Of a stretch of DNA of 64,000 nt, positions 1,253 through 59,811 are shown in pieces. The DNA lies in IMG/VR virus record IMGVR_UViG_3300005260_000047; one strand, written 5' to 3'. The notes under the pieces are model-generated. The model searched no databases, was not told where the DNA came from, and saw nothing but the letters and a program-made list of their open reading frames with translations. Each line of letters starts with the position of its first letter. The stretch's first letter is position 1. Source of the stretch: a virus. Its lineage: Duplodnaviria; Heunggongvirae; Uroviricota; Caudoviricetes. The translations under genes and the position numbers were made by a program.

Positions 1253-1292
1253 AGCTTTGGATACTAACTCAGTGGTGACTTATATGTCAAGC

Positions 1293-2537
1293 CTATCGAG
1301 ACAGGCCGCCAATCTCTACTTTGCGCACCGGATATTCCAGCTCGATGCAATAGCCGCCGGCGTCGGCGGAGTGTTCCACGCCGGCCGCCTTGTCTACATC
1401 GCGCGTGCCAGGCTTGTAAATGGTTTGTTCCAGCGCGTTGATGAAATGCTTGCAGCGCGCATCGACCTTCAACCGTACCGTGCCGTCGGCCGCCTTCAGC
1501 ATCCTGTTTACGGCATTGACGCGGTCAGCCACGAACGGATGCTTGCGGCGGTATTTGATGCGCTTGAAGCCTTTTTCTCGCAGGATGTCCAGGTCGGTCT
1601 CGCCGCGGGCGTGCTGGCGCTGGCCGCCGGCGGGGTCAGGGTAGACCACGATCTGCACCTGCTGACGCCAGTAGCGCTTCTCCAGCTCTTCGCAGACCTC
1701 TTCCGTGTTGGATCCGAACAGTACGATCTCATCCACCGCCCACAACTCACCGTTTTTCTGCGGCTGAAAAATCACCGCAGACATCGGGTCGATGTTGAAG
1801 TCCATACCAACCCAGATCGGCAGCTTCGGATTGAAGGCGTATTGGTCAACATGCTCGTTGCGGTCGAACGGATAGTAGACGCGGCCGGACATGGTTTCGA
1901 AGGATGCTTCAAACTCCTGCTTGAAGGATTTCTCGTCCATGTCGGCGCGCGCCGCCTCGATCTCGGACACAGGGATGAACGGCGACGTGATGGTCGGGAA
2001 TTGCCAGGACTCCCACAGTCCGCGCGTGACGTTCTTCGGATCCTGCCCCTTCTGGTAAATCGTGTAGAGGTAGTTGTAAGCCTTGGGCGTGCCGATGAAG
2101 ATTGCGTGGCCGCGGCGGTCAGCCAGCGTCGGGCGCAGGACTTTTGTCCAGGTGTCCTCGTCAATATCCTGGAATTCGTCCAGCACCAGAAAGTCCACGC
2201 CCACGCCGCGCAGCGAATCGCCCTTGTCGGCGCCCTTCAGTTCGATGCGGGTGCCGTTGACCAGCGTGATCGCCATATTGGTCTCGTTGACCTTGCGAAT
2301 CCAGCGCTTCGGGATAGCCTCCAGCAGATCGTTCCACATGATCTGCTTGGCCATCTTGTAGGTCGGCGCCACGTACCAGATTTTCGACTTCCGTTTTTTG
2401 GCGCGGGTAATGATCAGCACGCGGGATAATGCCGTCTTACCCCACCGGCGGCCGGCGACGACGACGCGAAAGCGCGCCGACGACTTGTAGACCGTCATCT
2501 GCTTGGGATGCAGCCGCAACGTGCTTCGCATCGCCAT
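1293..2537 (-). CDS. terL: Terminase large subunit (ATPase + nuclease)
   Basis: Walker A 'VVAGRRWGKTAL' and Walker B 'FLVLDEFQDI'. The C-terminal RNaseH-like nuclease region carries acidic residues. ATG at 2537, 1 nt after the terS stop. The track ORF 1293..2633 carries a non-coding-looking 32-aa N-terminal extension. Confidence 0.9.
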   Translation of the reverse strand: MAMRSTLRLHPKQMTVYKSSARFRVVVAGRRWGKTALSRVLIITRAKKRKSKIWYVAPTYKMAKQIMWNDLLEAIPKRWIRKVNETNMAITLVNGTRIELKGADKGDSLRGVGVDFLVLDEFQDIDEDTWTKVLRPTLADRRGHAIFIGTPKAYNYLYTIYQKGQDPKNVTRGLWESWQFPTITSPFIPVSEIEAARADMDEKSFKQEFEASFETMSGRVYYPFDRNEHVDQYAFNPKLPIWVGMDFNIDPMSAVIFQPQKNGELWAVDEIVLFGSNTEEVCEELEKRYWRQQVQIVVYPDPAGGQRQHARGETDLDILREKGFKRIKYRRKHPFVADRVNAVNRMLKAADGTVRLKVDARCKHFINALEQTIYKPGTRDVDKAAGVEHSADAGGYCIELEYPVRKVEIGGLSR

Positions 2538-2538
2538 G

Positions 2539-57448: not shown

Positions 57449-58471
57449 TTAAGCAGCCTGACGGCTGACCGCCGATACCGCGCGCGCCTTCACGTCATCA
57501 TGCGCAAGCGTGCGCACCTGGCCTTTGGTTTCTTCGCGGCGGTCAGCGCCCAACTGCACGATCATGTCCTTGCGGTGACGCAACGCCTCGACAGCCCCCT
57601 TGTTGAAGCCTGACAGCATTTCCGCTTCGATCACCATGTTTTTGGCTTGCAGGTATTCCGGATCCATTTTGACGGCGTTTTCAACCATCTTTTCCGTCAC
57701 CTTCTCGCCAGACAGAGACAGTGCCTTGCGATGCTGGTCATACAGCTTGGCTTCGACCACTTCGAAACGCAACTTAACCCGCGCATGCTGTGCTTCCGCG
57801 CGTGCCGCTTCAGCAGCATGGAATGCAAACAATCCCGCCTGCCCCATCATCGCGCTGTCCAGATTGTTGTCGGACACCGTGATGTCGCTCTTGAACGAAT
57901 CAATGTCCAGGTAAAACTGCAATTGCGGCGCTTTCTTGGCCGGCTTCGGGTTCGGATGCGCCGGCTCTTCCAGTGCGGCAGGCGTAGTCGCCATTTCAGC
58001 CACGCCTGCCACAACAGGCGACGCAACGTGCAAAACGGCCGCCTTGACCGGCTCGTCCAACTGCGCTGCGGCTGGCGCGGCTTGTTCGGCGTCGAGTTCC
58101 GCTTGCAGGGCTACCAGCTCGTCCACGTCAGCCTGGCCACCCTGGCGCGCCAGGTCAGCTTGCGCTAGTGCGACCGCGTCATTCGTGGACACTTTGCCTT
58201 TTGCATTCAATTCAGCGGCAGCCGTCGTAATGTCGGCGTCACTTACCACGGCGACGCCTTCTGCGCTCGCCTGGTCGCGTAACTGCTCGGCATCGATTTC
58301 GTCCAATCCATCCAGGTCGGACTCATTCAGCTCGGCGGTCGGTGCCGGCGTCGGTGTCGCTGCGGTCGCCACAGTTGGCGTCACAACCATATCTTTGGTT
58401 TCTGCGTCGAGTTCTGCCATCAGAGCATCCAGCTCTGCATCATCCATCGGGATTTCTTTTTGCGCTGCCAT
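57449..58471 (-). CDS. Hypothetical protein (acidic low-complexity N-terminus; C-terminal domain possibly UvsY-like recombination mediator)
   Basis: It sits next to the SSB and UvsX-like genes. The similarity to UvsY is only a weak pattern match. Confidence 0.4.
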   Translation of the reverse strand: MAAQKEIPMDDAELDALMAELDAETKDMVVTPTVATAATPTPAPTAELNESDLDGLDEIDAEQLRDQASAEGVAVVSDADITTAAAELNAKGKVSTNDAVALAQADLARQGGQADVDELVALQAELDAEQAAPAAAQLDEPVKAAVLHVASPVVAGVAEMATTPAALEEPAHPNPKPAKKAPQLQFYLDIDSFKSDITVSDNNLDSAMMGQAGLFAFHAAEAARAEAQHARVKLRFEVVEAKLYDQHRKALSLSGEKVTEKMVENAVKMDPEYLQAKNMVIEAEMLSGFNKGAVEALRHRKDMIVQLGADRREETKGQVRTLAHDDVKARAVSAVSRQAA

Positions 58472-58551
58472 GTTTATCTCCTATAAGAGTTTGCTTCGTG
58501 ATTCAATACTACCTACCGTTTGCAGGATTTTGTTATTCAGTTGTGACTTAT

Positions 58552-59811
58552 TTATGCAAGCATATCGGCCACCTTTTCAAATATCGCCTTCAAGACTTCC
58601 GCCTTGCTAGAATCGAAAATGATCTGTTGCGCATTGATGCCGCAGACGATTGAGGCATCCAGCGCCGGATCGTAAATCACCCTGCCCGCCAGCTCCGCGG
58701 TGCCACCCTTGACGCCAGGCACGAAGCGCTTGATGGCGGCACTCCCCAACGCTACGATGATCGGCGGCTTGATCAGCGCAATCTCATGGTCAAGAAACGC
58801 CTTGCAGCCGTTGATCTGCCCGTTGGAAAGGAACTTGTCGTTTTTCTTCGCCTTGACCAGCGTCGTGTAATAGCCATCGGCCGGCGACAGCCCGACATCC
58901 GTAATGGCGGCTTTGATGAAATCAGCCGCATCCCCTTCAAGCAGCTTGTCTGCTTTTTCTTCCTGCCAGGATGGGCAGTCTGATACCACCATGAACTTGA
59001 TGTTAGCCTTCATGCGCACGGCCGGATGAGGCTGACCAGCCAAATCGCAACCTTCACACTTGCGGTAATCCTGGATCAAATGAATGATCTTGGTGCGCAA
59101 GAACGGATCCTTCACATCGGTCGAGCGATCCGCCTTGACGCTATCGATAATCAGTCCTGGCATCAGGTCGAGCTGATCCTTGCGGCGATCCAGATGCCGT
59201 GCAGGTTTGCTTCCCGCCTCAATATCGGCAAGCGCACCAACCAGCCGCAGATTCTCGACCACCTTGGCGTTGACCTTCGAGCCTGGCTGTGAAGCTGCCA
59301 GCATGAATTCTTCAGCCGTATCGAAGCGGCCCTTGCATGGCGAATCTTCATCCAATCCATAGACTGCTTCGATCGTGCCGTCGCGCTTCTTTTTCTGCTT
59401 GACGACTTTCCAGCCCCGATTGCGCTCCCGCAATTCAACAATGCGCTTTGCCGTGTTTTCAGAAATGCCCTTGACGCTTGAGAAGGGCGCCAAAAGATGC
59501 TTGTCGTCGGGAATAGTGAAGCGATGTGTGGAGCGGTTGACATCGGGCGGCAAGACCTCGATGCCATACTCGCGCGCATCCTTGACCAGCCCTTCGAGCT
59601 TGTCGTCGCCTACGATCGACAGGCAAGCGGCAAAGTATTCAGCCGGATAGCGCACCCGCAGCCACATTGTCCAATAACTCACAATCGAATATTCAATGGC
59701 GTGTGATCTGTTGAATCCATATCCGGCGAACGCGGCGATCTTGTCGAACAGACTATCTGCCGCCGACTCACTCATGCCATTTTTAAGCGGCTTGACACTC
59801 TTGATTTTCAT
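58552..59811 (-). CDS. DNA polymerase III alpha (DnaE-type) C-terminal fragment, plus a possible UDG-like C-terminal domain
   Basis: 'FDKIAAFAGYGFNRSHAIEYSIVSYWTMWLRVRYPAEYFAACL' matches DnaE '[35 protein letters not shown]'. This continues where the 60539..62893 ORF loses homology. Confidence 0.7.
   Translation of the reverse strand: MKIKSVKPLKNGMSESAADSLFDKIAAFAGYGFNRSHAIEYSIVSYWTMWLRVRYPAEYFAACLSIVGDDKLEGLVKDAREYGIEVLPPDVNRSTHRFTIPDDKHLLAPFSSVKGISENTAKRIVELRERNRGWKVVKQKKKRDGTIEAVYGLDEDSPCKGRFDTAEEFMLAASQPGSKVNAKVVENLRLVGALADIEAGSKPARHLDRRKDQLDLMPGLIIDSVKADRSTDVKDPFLRTKIIHLIQDYRKCEGCDLAGQPHPAVRMKANIKFMVVSDCPSWQEEKADKLLEGDAADFIKAAITDVGLSPADGYYTTLVKAKKNDKFLSNGQINGCKAFLDHEIALIKPPIIVALGSAAIKRFVPGVKGGTAELAGRVIYDPALDASIVCGINAQQIIFDSSKAEVLKAIFEKVADMLA

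What the first reader, a model, noticed from the sequence alone, without database searches (positions are those of the whole stretch)
1268..58552. Phage-wide palindromic operator AAGTCA-N4-TGACTT at more than 25 intergenic sites, embedded in sigma70-like promoters
The pattern (A)AGTCA-N4-TGACTT(AT) recurs at many intergenic sites, with half-site variants such as TCAnTAnTGACTTAT and tCACTACTTACTTAT.

Sites found by reading the sequence:
- 1268-1283, 3273-3288 (perfect), 3644-3660, 8433-8448 (perfect), 10267-10284, 12451-12465, 13112-13127, 13725-13739 (opposite orientation)
- 14155-14170, 15794-15809, 19284-19301 (perfect), 22637-22653, 22660-22677 (perfect), 28686-28700, 32626-32643, 32653-32668, 33685-33700
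- 37003-37017, 37043-37058 (perfect), 37829-37846 (perfect), 39246-39267 (extended 10-bp arms), 41259-41277 (everted arms TGACT..AGTCA), 42363-42378, 45751-45767
- 46290-46307 (perfect), 52315-52332 (perfect), 54406-54420, 57408-57424, 58537-58552

None lies inside a confidently called ORF, apart from ends overlapping stop codons.

Where hexamers can be read, the site sits in one of three positions:
- inside the 17-nt spacer (8425 TTGAAA-site-TATACT; 1286 TTGACA-site-TAGTAT; 13128 TTGTAA-site-TATTAT; 15813 TTGTAA-site-AATGAT);
- overlapping the -35 (22656 TTGCAT; 37039 TTGTAA; 3258 TTGACA);
- directly abutting a TATAAT (42356, 45740, 46286, 32644), or just downstream of the -10 (37003, 52315).

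This placement is the classic architecture of operators for one dimeric regulator controlling most transcription units, comparable in logic to mycobacteriophage stoperators or LexA boxes. Here the density is about one site per 2 kb across a replication-gene region. The regulator is not identified. The winged-helix proteins at 3743..4090 and 35707..36171 are candidates.
Basis: seen in the sequence. Interest (0 to 1): 0.8.

Follow-up and report, generated by a model that had tools for sequence, protein, structure and literature searches.

The report
Genome-wide operator sites of a prophage repressor
A roughly 20-bp near-palindromic DNA word recurs about 40 times between the genes of this ~110-kb prophage, overlapping ordinary bacterial promoters at fixed positions, and is most likely the docking site through which one phage-encoded repressor, whose gene lies just outside the window, keeps the whole virus silent.

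Summary
AGTCA-N4-TGACT occurs 11 times exactly against 0.04 expected. A 20-bp matrix finds 42 sites in the 81.6-kb reconstructed prophage against 0.06 in shuffles, and 35 of them are intergenic. Of the 29 listed sites, 27 are confirmed.

The motif is not a clean palindrome. Its consensus is (A)ATAAGTCA-yhAv-TGAvT(T)A. The right arm is degenerate, and 34 of 42 sites point the same way as transcription.

The site centre falls at fixed positions relative to good sigma70-type hexamers: -41.5 at 6 sites and -19.5 at 9-10 sites, with second sites at about +1 to +6. It is therefore an independent protein-binding site, not a core promoter element. An RNA hairpin is disfavoured.

The window is part of an integrated prophage. 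About 4.8 kb beyond its right end lies a 149-aa XRE/434-Cro-like regulator, transcribed divergently from the lytic operon and sitting beside the integrase. Its homologues co-occur with the same operator in phages and phage-plasmids of Alpha-, Beta- and Gammaproteobacteria, and one is annotated as the putative repressor of the SSU5-like phage Cyrano.

Closest analogues are P1 C1 operators, mycobacteriophage stoperators and phiC31 CIRs. This is a new member of a known kind. Binding is untested.

The parts
1265..1284 (-). operator site TATAAGTCACCACTGAGTTA, in the spacer of TTGACA-18-TAGTAT (centre -19.5), upstream of the terminase large-subunit gene
   Evidence: 27.5 bits; register
3272..3291 (-). 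operator site GATAAGTCATCGGTGACTTG, overlapping the -35 of TTGACA-17-TATAGT (centre -41.5)
   Evidence: 21.8 bits; promoter score 15.2
3642..3661 (-). operator site, AGTAA variant of the left arm (TATAAGTAAGTAATGACTGA)
   Evidence: 24.9 bits
6524..6543 (+). site ATTAAGTCATTCATGACTTA at a gene junction; coding in my gene map
   Evidence: 25.0 bits; exact core
8432..8451 (.). best and fully palindromic site, TATAAGTCATTACTGACTTA, in the divergent region between the ParB-like gene (-) and the UvsW-like helicase (+); lies in the spacer of the + strand promoter TTGAAA-17-TATACT
   Evidence: 30.0 bits on the - strand and 26.6 on the + strand; read from sequence
10263..10282 (-). site CATAAGTAAGTAGTGAATGA between + strand genes, antisense to them; no promoter recognised
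   Evidence: 24.1 bits
12447..12466 (-). site CATAAGTCATTAGTGAATTA followed by a hairpin
   Evidence: 29.0 bits; fold
13109..13128 (-). site in the spacer of TTGTAA-17-TATTAT (centre -19.5)
   Evidence: 25.5 bits; promoter score 13.0
13724..13743 (+). site in the opposite orientation, abutting the Shine-Dalgarno sequence of gene 13446-13712
   Evidence: 26.0 bits
14152..14171 (-). site, AGTAA variant (AATAAGTAAGTAGTGAAGTA)
   Evidence: 23.0 bits
15791..15810 (-). site CCTAAGTCATTCGTGAATGA, with TTGTAA just upstream
   Evidence: 21.0 bits
19283..19302 (-). site AATAAGTCACAAATGACTTT; no strong promoter recognised
   Evidence: 29.2 bits
22635..22654 (+). second site, inverted, in the spacer (centre -19.5) of TTGCAT-17-TATCAT
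   Evidence: 23.4 bits
22659..22678 (-). site overlapping the -35 of TTGCAT-17-TATCAT (centre -41.5)
   Evidence: 27.9 bits
   Evidence: 24.2 bits
28689..28708 (-). weak site CTTTACTCACAACTGACTTA abutting a Shine-Dalgarno sequence and ATG
   Evidence: 19.3 bits
30590..30609 (+). site inside ORF 30129-30620, at the centre of a palindrome with 13-bp arms (30586-30619)
   Evidence: 19.7 bits
32635..32654 (-). downstream site of a tandem pair (centre +5.5 of CTAAAA-16-TATAAT)
   Evidence: 25.8 bits
32660..32679 (-). upstream site of the tandem pair, in the spacer (centre -19.5)
   Evidence: 25.4 bits
33684..33703 (-). site GATTAATCACAACTGACTGA, 10 nt from a start codon; no promoter
   Evidence: 21.6 bits
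37001..37020 (-). second site at the transcription start (centre -0.5) of TTGTAA-17-TATGAT
   Evidence: 17.5 bits
37042..37061 (-). site overlapping the -35 of TTGTAA-17-TATGAT (centre -41.5), at the apex of a hairpin with a 12-bp outer stem (37027-37073)
   Evidence: 26.3 bits
37828..37847 (-). site overlapping the -35 of TTGTAA-17-TAATAT (centre -41.5)
   Evidence: 22.2 bits
39248..39267 (-). site within a palindrome with 10-bp arms, GCCTTAGTCA-N4-TGACTAAGGC
   Evidence: 20.3 bits; fold z = -5.5
42360..42379 (-). site in the spacer of TCAAAA-17-TATAAT (centre -19.5)
   Evidence: 20.5 bits
45748..45767 (-). site ATTAAGTCACAACTGAGTTA with a TATAAT 4 nt downstream; upstream of the ribonucleotide reductase gene
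   Evidence: 27.1 bits
46289..46308 (-). site in the spacer of CTGATA-18-TATAAT, just downstream of a terminator-like hairpin (46356-46342)
   Evidence: 26.7 bits; independent promoter and terminator scan
   Evidence: 24.3 bits
52315..52334 (-). site filling a 28-nt gap (52305-52332) between two genes and directly abutting AAAGGAG-ATG; no room for a -10
   Evidence: 25.2 bits
   Evidence: 26.9 bits
54052..54071 (+). weak site inside an ORF, in the opposite orientation
   Evidence: 18.4 bits
57404..57423 (-). site in the spacer of ATTAAA-16-TATAAT (centre -19.5)
   Evidence: 26.6 bits
58533..58552 (-). site AATAAGTCACAACTGAATAA, 3 nt after the stop codon of the DnaE C-terminal part
   Evidence: 29.4 bits

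Best explanation
The sites are operators for a phage-encoded helix-turn-helix regulator.

The window is the central 64 kb of an integrated ~110-kb siphophage prophage, with nearly all genes on the minus strand. The most likely regulator is a 149-aa XRE-family protein (P0001). Its gene lies about 4.8 kb beyond the right end of the window. It is transcribed divergently from the lytic operon (small ORF, CobT, CobS, sigma-like protein, DnaE) and sits beside the excisionase-like and integrase genes.

The regulator probably acts as a dimer. It would recognise the 14-bp core AGTCA-N4-TGAvT plus a 5' ATA flank.

The phage transcribes its genes from many separate host sigma70-type promoters. Each promoter carries its own operator, placed over the -35 (centre -41.5), in the spacer abutting the -10 (centre -19.5), or at the transcription start. 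One protein can therefore switch off the whole genome during lysogeny.

Sites that have no promoter and sit in very short gaps between genes may block read-through by RNA polymerase, in the manner of stoperators.

Shown here: the motif, its statistics, its registers relative to promoter hexamers, its conservation across the phage lineage, and its co-occurrence with the regulator gene.

Inferred: that this protein binds the site, that it binds as a dimer, and that the net effect is repression.
For: - **Over-representation and intergenic placement.**
- **Discrete registers relative to promoters.** Strong promoter hexamers lie around the sites: 29 of 42 sites have a sigma70-like match scoring at least 8, against 7% of random windows. 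Motif centres pile up at exactly -41.5 (6 sites, all with good TTGnnn-17-TAnnnT) and -19.5 (9-10 sites). Tandem second sites on the same promoters lie at -0.5 to +5.5. An independent scan recovers two of these promoters, one directly downstream of a terminator-like hairpin. The -41.5 promoters are near-consensus (TTGACA-17-TATAGT, TTGACA-17-TATTGT) and should not need an activator.
- **Prophage context.** The locus contains an integrase, an HTH_17 protein, a CI-like protein and the 149-aa regulator. Sites also lie in the regulator's own divergent promoter region and in the HTH_17/CI-like divergent region.
- **Nature of the regulator.** It hits PHROG transcriptional-regulator families. Its AF2 model has pLDDT 81.6. 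The N-terminal domain superposes on 434 Cro (33% identity, rmsd 1.9 A), 434 repressor, P22 c2, Stl, DdrO and HigA. The profile also hits a PDB 'immunity repressor' and 434 Cro/repressor.
- **Co-occurrence with the motif.** Homologues in the same divergent position occur together with AGTCA-N4-TGACT-type sites in:
  - Massilia and Paraburkholderia prophages;
  - four metagenomic ~105-112-kb phages;
  - a Polaromonas prophage;
  - Rhizobium phages RHEph10 and N1_10;
  - an A. baumannii 105-kb phage-plasmid, with 15 sites in 39.5 kb.
  B1VFA and a Rep3/ParA phage-plasmid carry the variant AGTAA-N4-TTACT.
- **Absence together.** The related phages nickie and BUCTxx99 have no homologue and no enriched palindrome.
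- **The neighbouring CI-like protein is not the binder.** The 228-aa CI-like protein is missing from most motif-bearing relatives.
- **Independent annotation.** The E. coli homologue is annotated as the putative repressor of the SSU5-like phage-plasmid Cyrano. It is listed among genes expressed in the lysogen (PMC9928086, Table 1).
Against: - No binding or expression data exist; every functional step is inferred.
- The site is asymmetric and 34 of 42 sites are co-oriented with transcription. This bias is conserved across nine genomes. A symmetric dimer does not require it.
- A centre at -41.5 is also the classical position of class II activators, so activation at those promoters is not excluded.
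- Recognition-helix covariation is inconclusive. The AGTAA-type genomes have N at residue 48 where most AGTCA-type genomes have K or Q. However, a Polaromonas homologue with N48 and a metagenomic one with I48 still sit among AGTCA sites.
- The small Cro-like ORF opposite the regulator, or the conserved sigma-like protein, could be the true binder or a second binder.
- Random-window controls for promoter scores are mostly coding DNA. They therefore overstate the contrast with AT-richer intergenic DNA.
Confidence: 0.58

Rival explanations
1. The same protein-binding site works mainly as an activator site. A phage regulator bound at -41.5 (class II position) or in the spacer (MerR-like) would turn on middle or late lytic promoters, rather than silencing them in lysogeny.
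For: Six sites are centred at exactly -41.5 and 9-10 in the spacer. Four of the spacer-class promoters have a perfect TATAAT but a poor -35 (ATTAAA, CTGATA, TCAAAA, CTAAAA), which could depend on an activator. In the Rhizobium phages the regulator gene is the first gene of the rightward operon, not divergent from it.
Against: The -41.5 promoters have near-consensus -35 and -10 hexamers at 17-bp spacing and should be strong unaided. Second operators sit over the -10 or the start of the same promoters. In all integrated or plasmid prophages the regulator sits in the lysogeny module, facing away from the lytic genes. Its structural neighbours are repressors.
Confidence: 0.15
2. The motif is a phage-specific promoter, read by host RNA polymerase carrying the phage's own sigma-like protein (244 aa, encoded just outside the window).
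For: A Sigma70_r2-like gene is conserved next to CobS in this lineage. The motif is directional, co-oriented with the genes, and lies 10-40 nt upstream of many start codons.
Against: The motif occupies at least three different registers relative to well-formed sigma70 hexamers, so it cannot be a fixed core-promoter element. It is an inverted repeat, and is perfectly palindromic in the Paraburkholderia and Acinetobacter relatives. It occurs in both orientations in divergent regulatory regions. No second conserved block lies at promoter spacing.
Confidence: 0.1
3. The motif acts in RNA or single-stranded DNA as a small hairpin (5-bp stem, 4-nt loop). It could be a 5'-UTR stabiliser, a processing site, a boxB-like antitermination signal or a terminator.
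For: The core can pair. About five sites sit at the apex of much longer hairpins (z below -3). The CobT-CobS spacer keeps an outer stem through compensatory changes in five relatives. Some RHEph10 sites are followed by terminator-like hairpins.
Against: The right-arm base that would pair with the conserved G is C in only 17 of 38 sites and is A or G in 19, which breaks the stem. Thirty-two of 42 sites have a fold z-score above -2 relative to flank shuffles, and most are close to 0 (mean z -0.9). There is no Rfam match. Terminator-like sites are not enriched.
Confidence: 0.07
4. A host protein (LexA-like, CRP/FNR-like or another global regulator) binds the sites.
For: The 5-N4-5 layout and the -41.5 position resemble FNR-type sites (plus general knowledge).
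Against: The same core is kept in phages of Alpha-, Beta- and Gammaproteobacteria. It does not match the FNR (TTGAT-N4-ATCAA) or LexA consensus sequences as I recall them. About 40 kb of non-phage DNA fetched here (L017, L019) holds only one chance-level match.
Confidence: 0.03

Closest known systems
Bacteriophage P1 C1 repressor and its dispersed operators (from my knowledge of the P1 immunity literature; not tested here)
   Same: A large (~90-110 kb) temperate phage or phage-plasmid whose single master repressor controls many separate transcription units through more than a dozen operators scattered over the genome. Each operator overlaps a host-type promoter.
   Different: P1 operators are an asymmetric 17-bp sequence bound by a C1 monomer. 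Here the core is a 14-bp inverted repeat, and the candidate regulator is a small 434-Cro-like XRE protein. No C1 homologue was sought or seen.
Cluster A mycobacteriophage (L5, Bxb1, TipsytheTRex) repressor with operators and stoperators (PMC9283540)
   Same: More than 20 sites occur both in promoters and in short intergenic gaps. Orientation correlates strikingly with the direction of transcription. A virulent relative that lacks the repressor appears to keep the sites (SSU5 here, D29 there).
   Different: Stoperators are 13-mer asymmetric sites bound by a monomer through an HTH plus a 'stoperator' domain. Here the site is a degenerate palindrome. The candidate's structural neighbours are dimeric XRE repressors, and no cluster A repressor appears among the top 50 fold matches. 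Blocking of elongation is untested.
Streptomyces phage phiC31 repressor and conserved inverted repeats (CIRs) (from my knowledge; not tested here)
   Same: A 17-bp inverted repeat recurs at many intergenic positions next to phage promoters and is bound by the phage repressor.
   Different: The host phylum, the repressor family and the promoter type all differ. In my recollection the CIRs are concentrated in the early region rather than spread genome-wide.
Phage 434 / lambda-type Cro-CI repressors with 14-17-bp palindromic operators
   Same: The fold of the DNA-binding domain is shared (33% identity to 434 Cro over 64 residues). The operator is a 14-bp 5-N4-5 type. The gene arrangement is divergent, with a small Cro-like ORF opposite the repressor.
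   Different: Lambdoid phages use about six operators at two loci and then a transcription cascade. Here there are about 40 or more operators, roughly one per 2 kb, including the structural-gene region. The candidate has no S24 self-cleavage domain.
KorA/KorB global regulons of IncP plasmids (from my knowledge; KorA appears as a weak profile hit)
   Same: Palindromic operators are distributed around a replicon, in fixed classes of position relative to promoters, and give coordinated repression.
   Different: KorB is a ParB-family CTP-dependent clamp. The ParB-like proteins of this phage also occur in relatives and were not linked to the motif.

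Membership tests
XRE/Cro-CI-type phage repressor with palindromic operator | The regulator has the five-helix XRE (HTH_3-like) DNA-binding fold | tested here: met
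   This holds for the candidate P0001. It hits PHROG families 8 and 2967. The AF2 model superposes on 434 Cro, 434 repressor and P22 c2 at rmsd 1.4-1.9 A. The profile hits a PDB immunity repressor and 434 Cro. Pfam HTH_3 itself was below threshold for this protein but is recorded for three family members.
XRE/Cro-CI-type phage repressor with palindromic operator | The operator is an inverted repeat of about 14-18 bp | tested here: met
   The core is AGTCA-N4-TGACT. It is perfectly palindromic in the Paraburkholderia and Acinetobacter relatives. In this phage the right arm is degenerate.
XRE/Cro-CI-type phage repressor with palindromic operator | Operators overlap core promoter elements | tested here: met
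   Site centres lie at -41.5, -19.5 and about +1 relative to predicted hexamers. The hexamers are predictions, not mapped transcription starts.
XRE/Cro-CI-type phage repressor with palindromic operator | The protein physically binds the site and lowers transcription | not testable with these tools
   Requires EMSA or footprinting, ChIP and reporter assays.
Cluster A mycobacteriophage stoperator system | More than 20 sites spread over the genome, in promoters and in short intergenic gaps (PMC9283540) | tested here: met
   There are 42 sites, 35 of them intergenic, and several lie in gaps of about 30-40 nt without promoter hexamers.
Cluster A mycobacteriophage stoperator system | Site orientation correlates with the direction of transcription | tested here: met
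   34 of 42 sites are sense-oriented (p = 7e-5). Matrix-independent counts agree in nine genomes.
Cluster A mycobacteriophage stoperator system | Asymmetric 13-mer bound by a monomer with an HTH plus a stoperator domain | tested here: not met
   The site has dyad symmetry. The candidate regulator's fold neighbours are dimeric XRE repressors, and no cluster A repressor is among the top 50 matches. Oligomeric state was not tested.
Cluster A mycobacteriophage stoperator system | Bound repressor halts elongating RNA polymerase in an orientation-dependent way | not testable with these tools
   Requires read-through reporter assays with inverted sites.
P1 C1 regulon | Asymmetric 17-bp operator consensus (ATTGCTCTAATAAATTT, from memory) | tested here: not met
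   The consensus here is ATAAGTCAyhAvTGAvT, which shows no resemblance.
Host SOS (LexA) boxes | Match to the host-class LexA consensus, with distribution following the host rather than the phage | tested here: not met
   The same core is kept in phages of three proteobacterial classes. The sequence is unlike CTGT-N8-ACAG or GTTC-N7-GTTC (consensus sequences from memory).
Phage sigma-factor-dependent promoter | Conserved element at a fixed distance from the transcription start | tested here: not met
   At least three registers occur relative to good sigma70 hexamers. Transcription starts were not mapped.
Known RNA family (Rfam) | Covariance-model match | tested here: not met
   No matches at gathering thresholds in the window.

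The most novel reading that the evidence does not exclude
The sites are more than promoter-occluding operators. The conserved asymmetry has three components: an invariant left arm plus ATA flank, a degenerate right arm, and a directional centre. Together with the co-orientation with transcription in at least nine genomes, it would reflect an orientation-dependent interaction with RNA polymerase. That would be a Gram-negative, XRE-family counterpart of mycobacteriophage stoperators, possibly also activating at -41.5. It would operate throughout the very large SSU5-related community of phage-plasmids and prophages; regulator homologues occur in 961 PLSDB plasmids, including Klebsiella, E. coli, Salmonella, Yersinia and A. 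baumannii.
Probability: 0.2. Interest if true: 0.7.

Novelty: new member of a known kind. Interest (0 to 1): 0.55.

Why it matters
Large DnaE-encoding siphophages and phage-plasmids related to SSU5 and RHEph10 are common in soil bacteria and in clinical Enterobacteriaceae and Acinetobacter. In the literature I could search, their lysis-lysogeny control is undescribed; the Cyrano study only labels a 'putative repressor'.

This analysis makes three testable predictions for the whole group:
- a repressor gene;
- its operator sequence;
- a regulon architecture of one operator per promoter, at two fixed registers, genome-wide.

The predictions bear on immunity groups, on induction, and on engineering these elements. 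They also offer an independent case for comparison with P1 and with the mycobacteriophage stoperator systems.

Tried and rejected
- **Near-identical phage search.** A megablast of 12 kb of the window gave only a 42-bp thymidylate-synthase hit.
- **RNA hairpin.** Rejected for most sites because of right-arm base usage and fold z-scores and the empty Rfam scan.
- **tRNA association.** There are no tRNA genes in the window.
There is no convincing DNA-binding family hit and no RHEph10 homologue.
- **The 228-aa CI-like HTH_3 protein next to the integrase.** Rejected as the binder because it is absent from Massilia and from the metagenomic relatives that carry the motif.
- **The p8847 protein.** Rejected because it is also present in the motif-less phage nickie.
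- **Recognition-helix/half-site covariation.** K/Q48 goes with AGTCA and N48 with AGTAA in 10 genomes. This was broken by Polaromonas (N48) and L020 (I48), both with AGTCA sites, so the result is inconclusive.
- **SSU5_054 and SSU5_056 as remote homologues of the regulator.** There is no profile match. SSU5 instead lacks the module that Cyrano has.
- **The motif as a -35 element (TTGACT, suggested by RHEph10).** Rejected because T is almost never found before TGA in this phage (1 of 38).
- **Stringent generic promoter scan.** It shows no overall enrichment in 30-50 kb (13 found against 11.4 expected). Only the position-specific analysis is informative.
- **Literature searches.** No description of the motif was found.

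Full report
**Observation**

The core AGTCA-N4-TGACT is present 11 times exactly in the window, against 0.04 expected, and 26 times at one mismatch or fewer, against 1.24 expected.
- 27 of the 29 listed sites are true instances, scoring 17.5-30 bits.
- 41259-41277 ('everted arms') and 54406-54420 (a half-site) are not instances.
- Two coordinates are about 8 nt off. The true sites are 32635-32654 and 32660-32679.
- Six further sites were missed: 6524, 24838, 30590, 47568, 53617 and 54052.

**What the window is**

Nearly all genes lie on the minus strand. They encode a T4-type terminase, a UvsW-like helicase, ParB-like proteins, RtcB, ribonucleotide reductase, an SbcCD-like nuclease pair, RecA and a DnaE-type polymerase. 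There is no close relative at the DNA level.

Exact protein look-up places the window inside a 260-kb soil-metagenome contig. Beyond the right end of the window, in the order met moving away from it, come:
- a sigma70_r2-like gene;
- CobS and CobT;
- a 66-aa ORF;
- a 149-aa gene on the opposite strand;
- a CI-like HTH_3 gene;
- an HTH_17 (excisionase-like) gene;
- an integrase;
- the bacterial genes pgsA and uvrC.

The window is therefore part of an integrated prophage. I joined the fetched pieces into an 81.6-kb sense-strand reconstruction.

**Statistics on the reconstruction**
- 42 sites score at least 17 bits, against 0.06 in shuffles.
- 35 of the 42 lie in the 16% of the sequence that is non-coding (p about 1e-21).
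- 34 of the 42 have the orientation of the genes (p = 7e-5).

Sites occur in the lysogeny region, the replication region and the structural-gene region.

**Anatomy of the site**

The sense-strand consensus is (A)ATAAGTCA-y-h-A-v-TGA-v-T-(T)A.
- The left arm and its ATA flank are almost invariant.
- The C of the right arm is present in only 17 of 38 sites (A in 11, G in 8).
- The third base of the centre is A in 32 of 38.

The site is therefore a degenerate, directional palindrome. Tests that do not use the matrix agree. TAAGTCA occurs 30 times on the sense strand and its complement 14 times. In nine genomes of the lineage, single mismatches fall in the promoter-proximal right arm 39 times and in the left arm 13 times, and the centre base is A 69 times and T 7 times.

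**Relation to promoters**

The flanks show no further conserved block. Two things recur immediately 3' of the right arm:
- a TAnnnT hexamer starting at matrix position 18 (9 of 36 sites, against 0.16 expected);
- a TTGnnn hexamer starting at position 17, followed 17 bp later by a good -10 (6 of 36 sites).

I searched for the best sigma70-like promoter within 60 bp of each site.
- The score is at least 8 at 29 of 42 sites, against 7% of random windows. Those control windows are mostly coding DNA, so this contrast is generous.
- Site centres cluster at exactly -41.5 (six sites; for example TTGACA-17-TATAGT at 3272, TTGTAA-17-TATGAT at 37042 and TTGCAT-17-TATCAT at 22659).
- They also cluster at -19.5 (nine to ten sites; for example TTGTAA-17-TATTAT at 13109 and TTGACA-18-TAGTAT at 1265).
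- Second operators on the same promoters lie at -0.5, +5.5 or -19.5 (37001, 32635 and 22635).

The generic promoter/terminator tool independently reports the 46289 and 37042 promoters. The 46289 promoter lies directly downstream of a terminator-like hairpin.

Because the motif takes several registers, it cannot be a core promoter element. It behaves as an autonomous binding site laid over promoters.

Thirteen of the 42 sites have no strong promoter prediction (score below 8). Several fill gaps of only about 30-40 nt between genes and abut the Shine-Dalgarno sequence (52315, 33684, 28689). These leave no room for a -10 and a transcription start.

**RNA hairpin alternative**

The right-arm base that would pair with the conserved G is A or G in half of the sites. 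Folding 60-nt windows gives a mean z of -0.9 relative to flank shuffles, and 32 of 42 sites have z above -2. No Rfam family matches.

About five sites do sit at the apex of long hairpins: window 37027-37073, 39245-39268 and 30586-30619, and the CobT-CobS spacer. In the CobT-CobS spacer the outer stem is kept through compensatory changes in five relatives. I regard this as an unexplained extra layer at a few sites, not as the general function.

**Comparative evidence**

DnaE places the phage near Rhizobium phages RHEph10, N1_10 and B1VFA (49% identity). It lies more distantly from the SSU5-like phage-plasmids and the nickie-like phages. Closer relatives (72-76% identity) are prophages of Massilia and Paraburkholderia.

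Related palindromes recur in intergenic regions of these genomes:

| Genome | Site |
|---|---|
| RHEph10, N1_10 | AGTCA-ATAT-TGACT, often nested |
| Massilia prophage | TAAGTCA-N4-TGA |
| Paraburkholderia prophage | AGTCAAAACTGACT |
| Five metagenomic or genomic relatives | AGTCA-N4-TGAnT |
| A. baumannii 105-kb phage-plasmid | AGTCA-sTAC-TGACT, 15 sites in 39.5 kb |
| B1VFA and a Rep3/ParA phage-plasmid | variant AGTAA-N4-TTACT |

The -41.5 and -18.5/-19.5 registers recur in these relatives. Exact 18-bp matches are also found on many IMG/VR contigs of 103-119 kb, several with multiple copies. The phages nickie and BUCTxx99 show no enriched palindrome.

**The regulator**

Among the conserved small proteins, one tracks the motif: the 149-aa protein P0001 (L001 3647-4096, minus strand).
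- It hits PHROG transcriptional-regulator families.
- Its family of 69 clusters is named 'XRE-family HTH regulator' by JGI.
- The AF2 model (pLDDT 81.6) has an N-terminal domain that superposes on 434 Cro (33% identity), 434 repressor, P22 c2, Stl, DdrO and HigA.
- Its profile hits a PDB 'immunity repressor' and 434 Cro.

In every prophage or plasmid-prophage examined, the gene is transcribed divergently from the small-ORF, CobT, CobS, DnaE operon. It lies next to HTH_17 plus integrase, or next to ParA plus Rep. In the Rhizobium phages it heads the rightward operon. Those phages are considered probable prophage-plasmids (PMC12509600).

Homologues occur in 961 PLSDB plasmids. They also occur in SSU5-like phages, where the Cyrano copy is annotated 'putative repressor' and is listed as expressed in the lysogen (PMC9928086). 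SSU5 itself lacks this module.

Other candidates can be set aside.
- The CI-like 228-aa protein is absent from most motif-bearing relatives.
- p8847 also occurs in motif-less nickie.

An attempt to tie a recognition-helix residue to the AGTCA/AGTAA difference was inconclusive.

**Interpretation**

The best-supported model is a phage-encoded XRE-type repressor, most likely P0001, possibly sharing operators with the small Cro-like ORF. It would silence the prophage by occupying an operator at each of its many host-type promoters. Promoter-less sites may act as roadblocks.

This is the strategy known from P1 C1, cluster A mycobacteriophages (PMC9283540) and phiC31. Here it would be implemented with an unrelated, uncharacterised regulator/operator pair.

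What is shown is sequence-level only. Binding, oligomeric state, the sign of regulation and any orientation dependence are inferred.

The conserved asymmetry and the co-orientation with transcription are not explained by a symmetric dimer. They may result from promoter hexamers constraining the proximal arm, or they may indicate an orientation-dependent mechanism.

**Verdict**

The feature is real and strongly non-random. I rate it a new member of a known kind, of moderate interest, raised by the breadth of the phage and phage-plasmid family that the prediction covers.

Noticed in passing
window 58552-62893 (minus strand): The DnaE polymerase is split. ORF 60539-62893 corresponds to residues 1-740 of the intact 1150-aa homologue, and ORF 58552-59811 to residues 742-1150. 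An HNH_3 endonuclease ORF (59783-60415) lies between them. Whether this is an intron, a free-standing homing endonuclease insertion or a true split gene is unresolved. Rfam found no intron.
   Followed up: partly
L001 8110-8844 (about 50-780 nt beyond window position 64000): A 244-aa Sigma70_r2-like protein lies between CobS and DnaE. It is conserved in RHEph10, N1_10, B1VFA, the Massilia, Paraburkholderia and Polaromonas prophages and metagenomic relatives. Its promoter specificity and role are unknown.
   Followed up: partly
window 37027-37073, 39245-39268 and 30586-30619; L001 about 6774-6826: A few operator sites sit at the apex of long hairpins, with outer stems or arms of 10-13 bp. The CobT-CobS spacer hairpin keeps its outer stem through compensatory changes in five relatives, although the stem sequence differs completely between them. 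This suggests an RNA or DNA structure superimposed on the operator and the -35.
   Followed up: partly
L001 7628-7649 (inside the CobS/AAA_5 gene): A motif instance inside coding sequence (GGTAAGTCACTGrTGATTAAAGAAGC) is conserved at the same place in the CobS gene of this prophage, Massilia, two metagenomic phages and Polaromonas. It could be protein-coding constraint or a functional internal site.
   Followed up: no
L010 (SSU5) compared with L140 (Cyrano): SSU5 lacks the small-ORF/repressor/integrase module that Cyrano carries upstream of CobT. It still has TAAGTA...TACTTA-like intergenic sites. This resembles the virulent mycobacteriophage D29, which lost its repressor but kept the stoperators.
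   Followed up: partly
L007 (B1VFA), for example 24746-24798, 34793-34845 and 38932-38984: In B1VFA the palindrome TAAGTAAGCACTTACTTA is often preceded by a conserved TTGTGCG-N17-TATAAG arrangement. This places the operator at the transcription start of a non-canonical promoter.
   Followed up: no
RHEph10 (L003) 475, 2753, 7577 and 13525: In the structural-gene region of RHEph10 the motif is immediately followed by GC-rich hairpins with T runs (terminator-like). This gives a motif-then-terminator order between highly expressed genes.
   Followed up: no
window 10263-10282: One strong site lies between two plus-strand genes (downstream of the helicase) but keeps the minus-strand orientation. It is therefore antisense to the local genes, and no promoter is recognisable on either strand.
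   Followed up: no
window 34483-35697: An RtcB RNA ligase gene is present, although the window encodes no tRNA. The relatives RHEph10 and BUCTxx99 carry tRNA genes.
   Followed up: no
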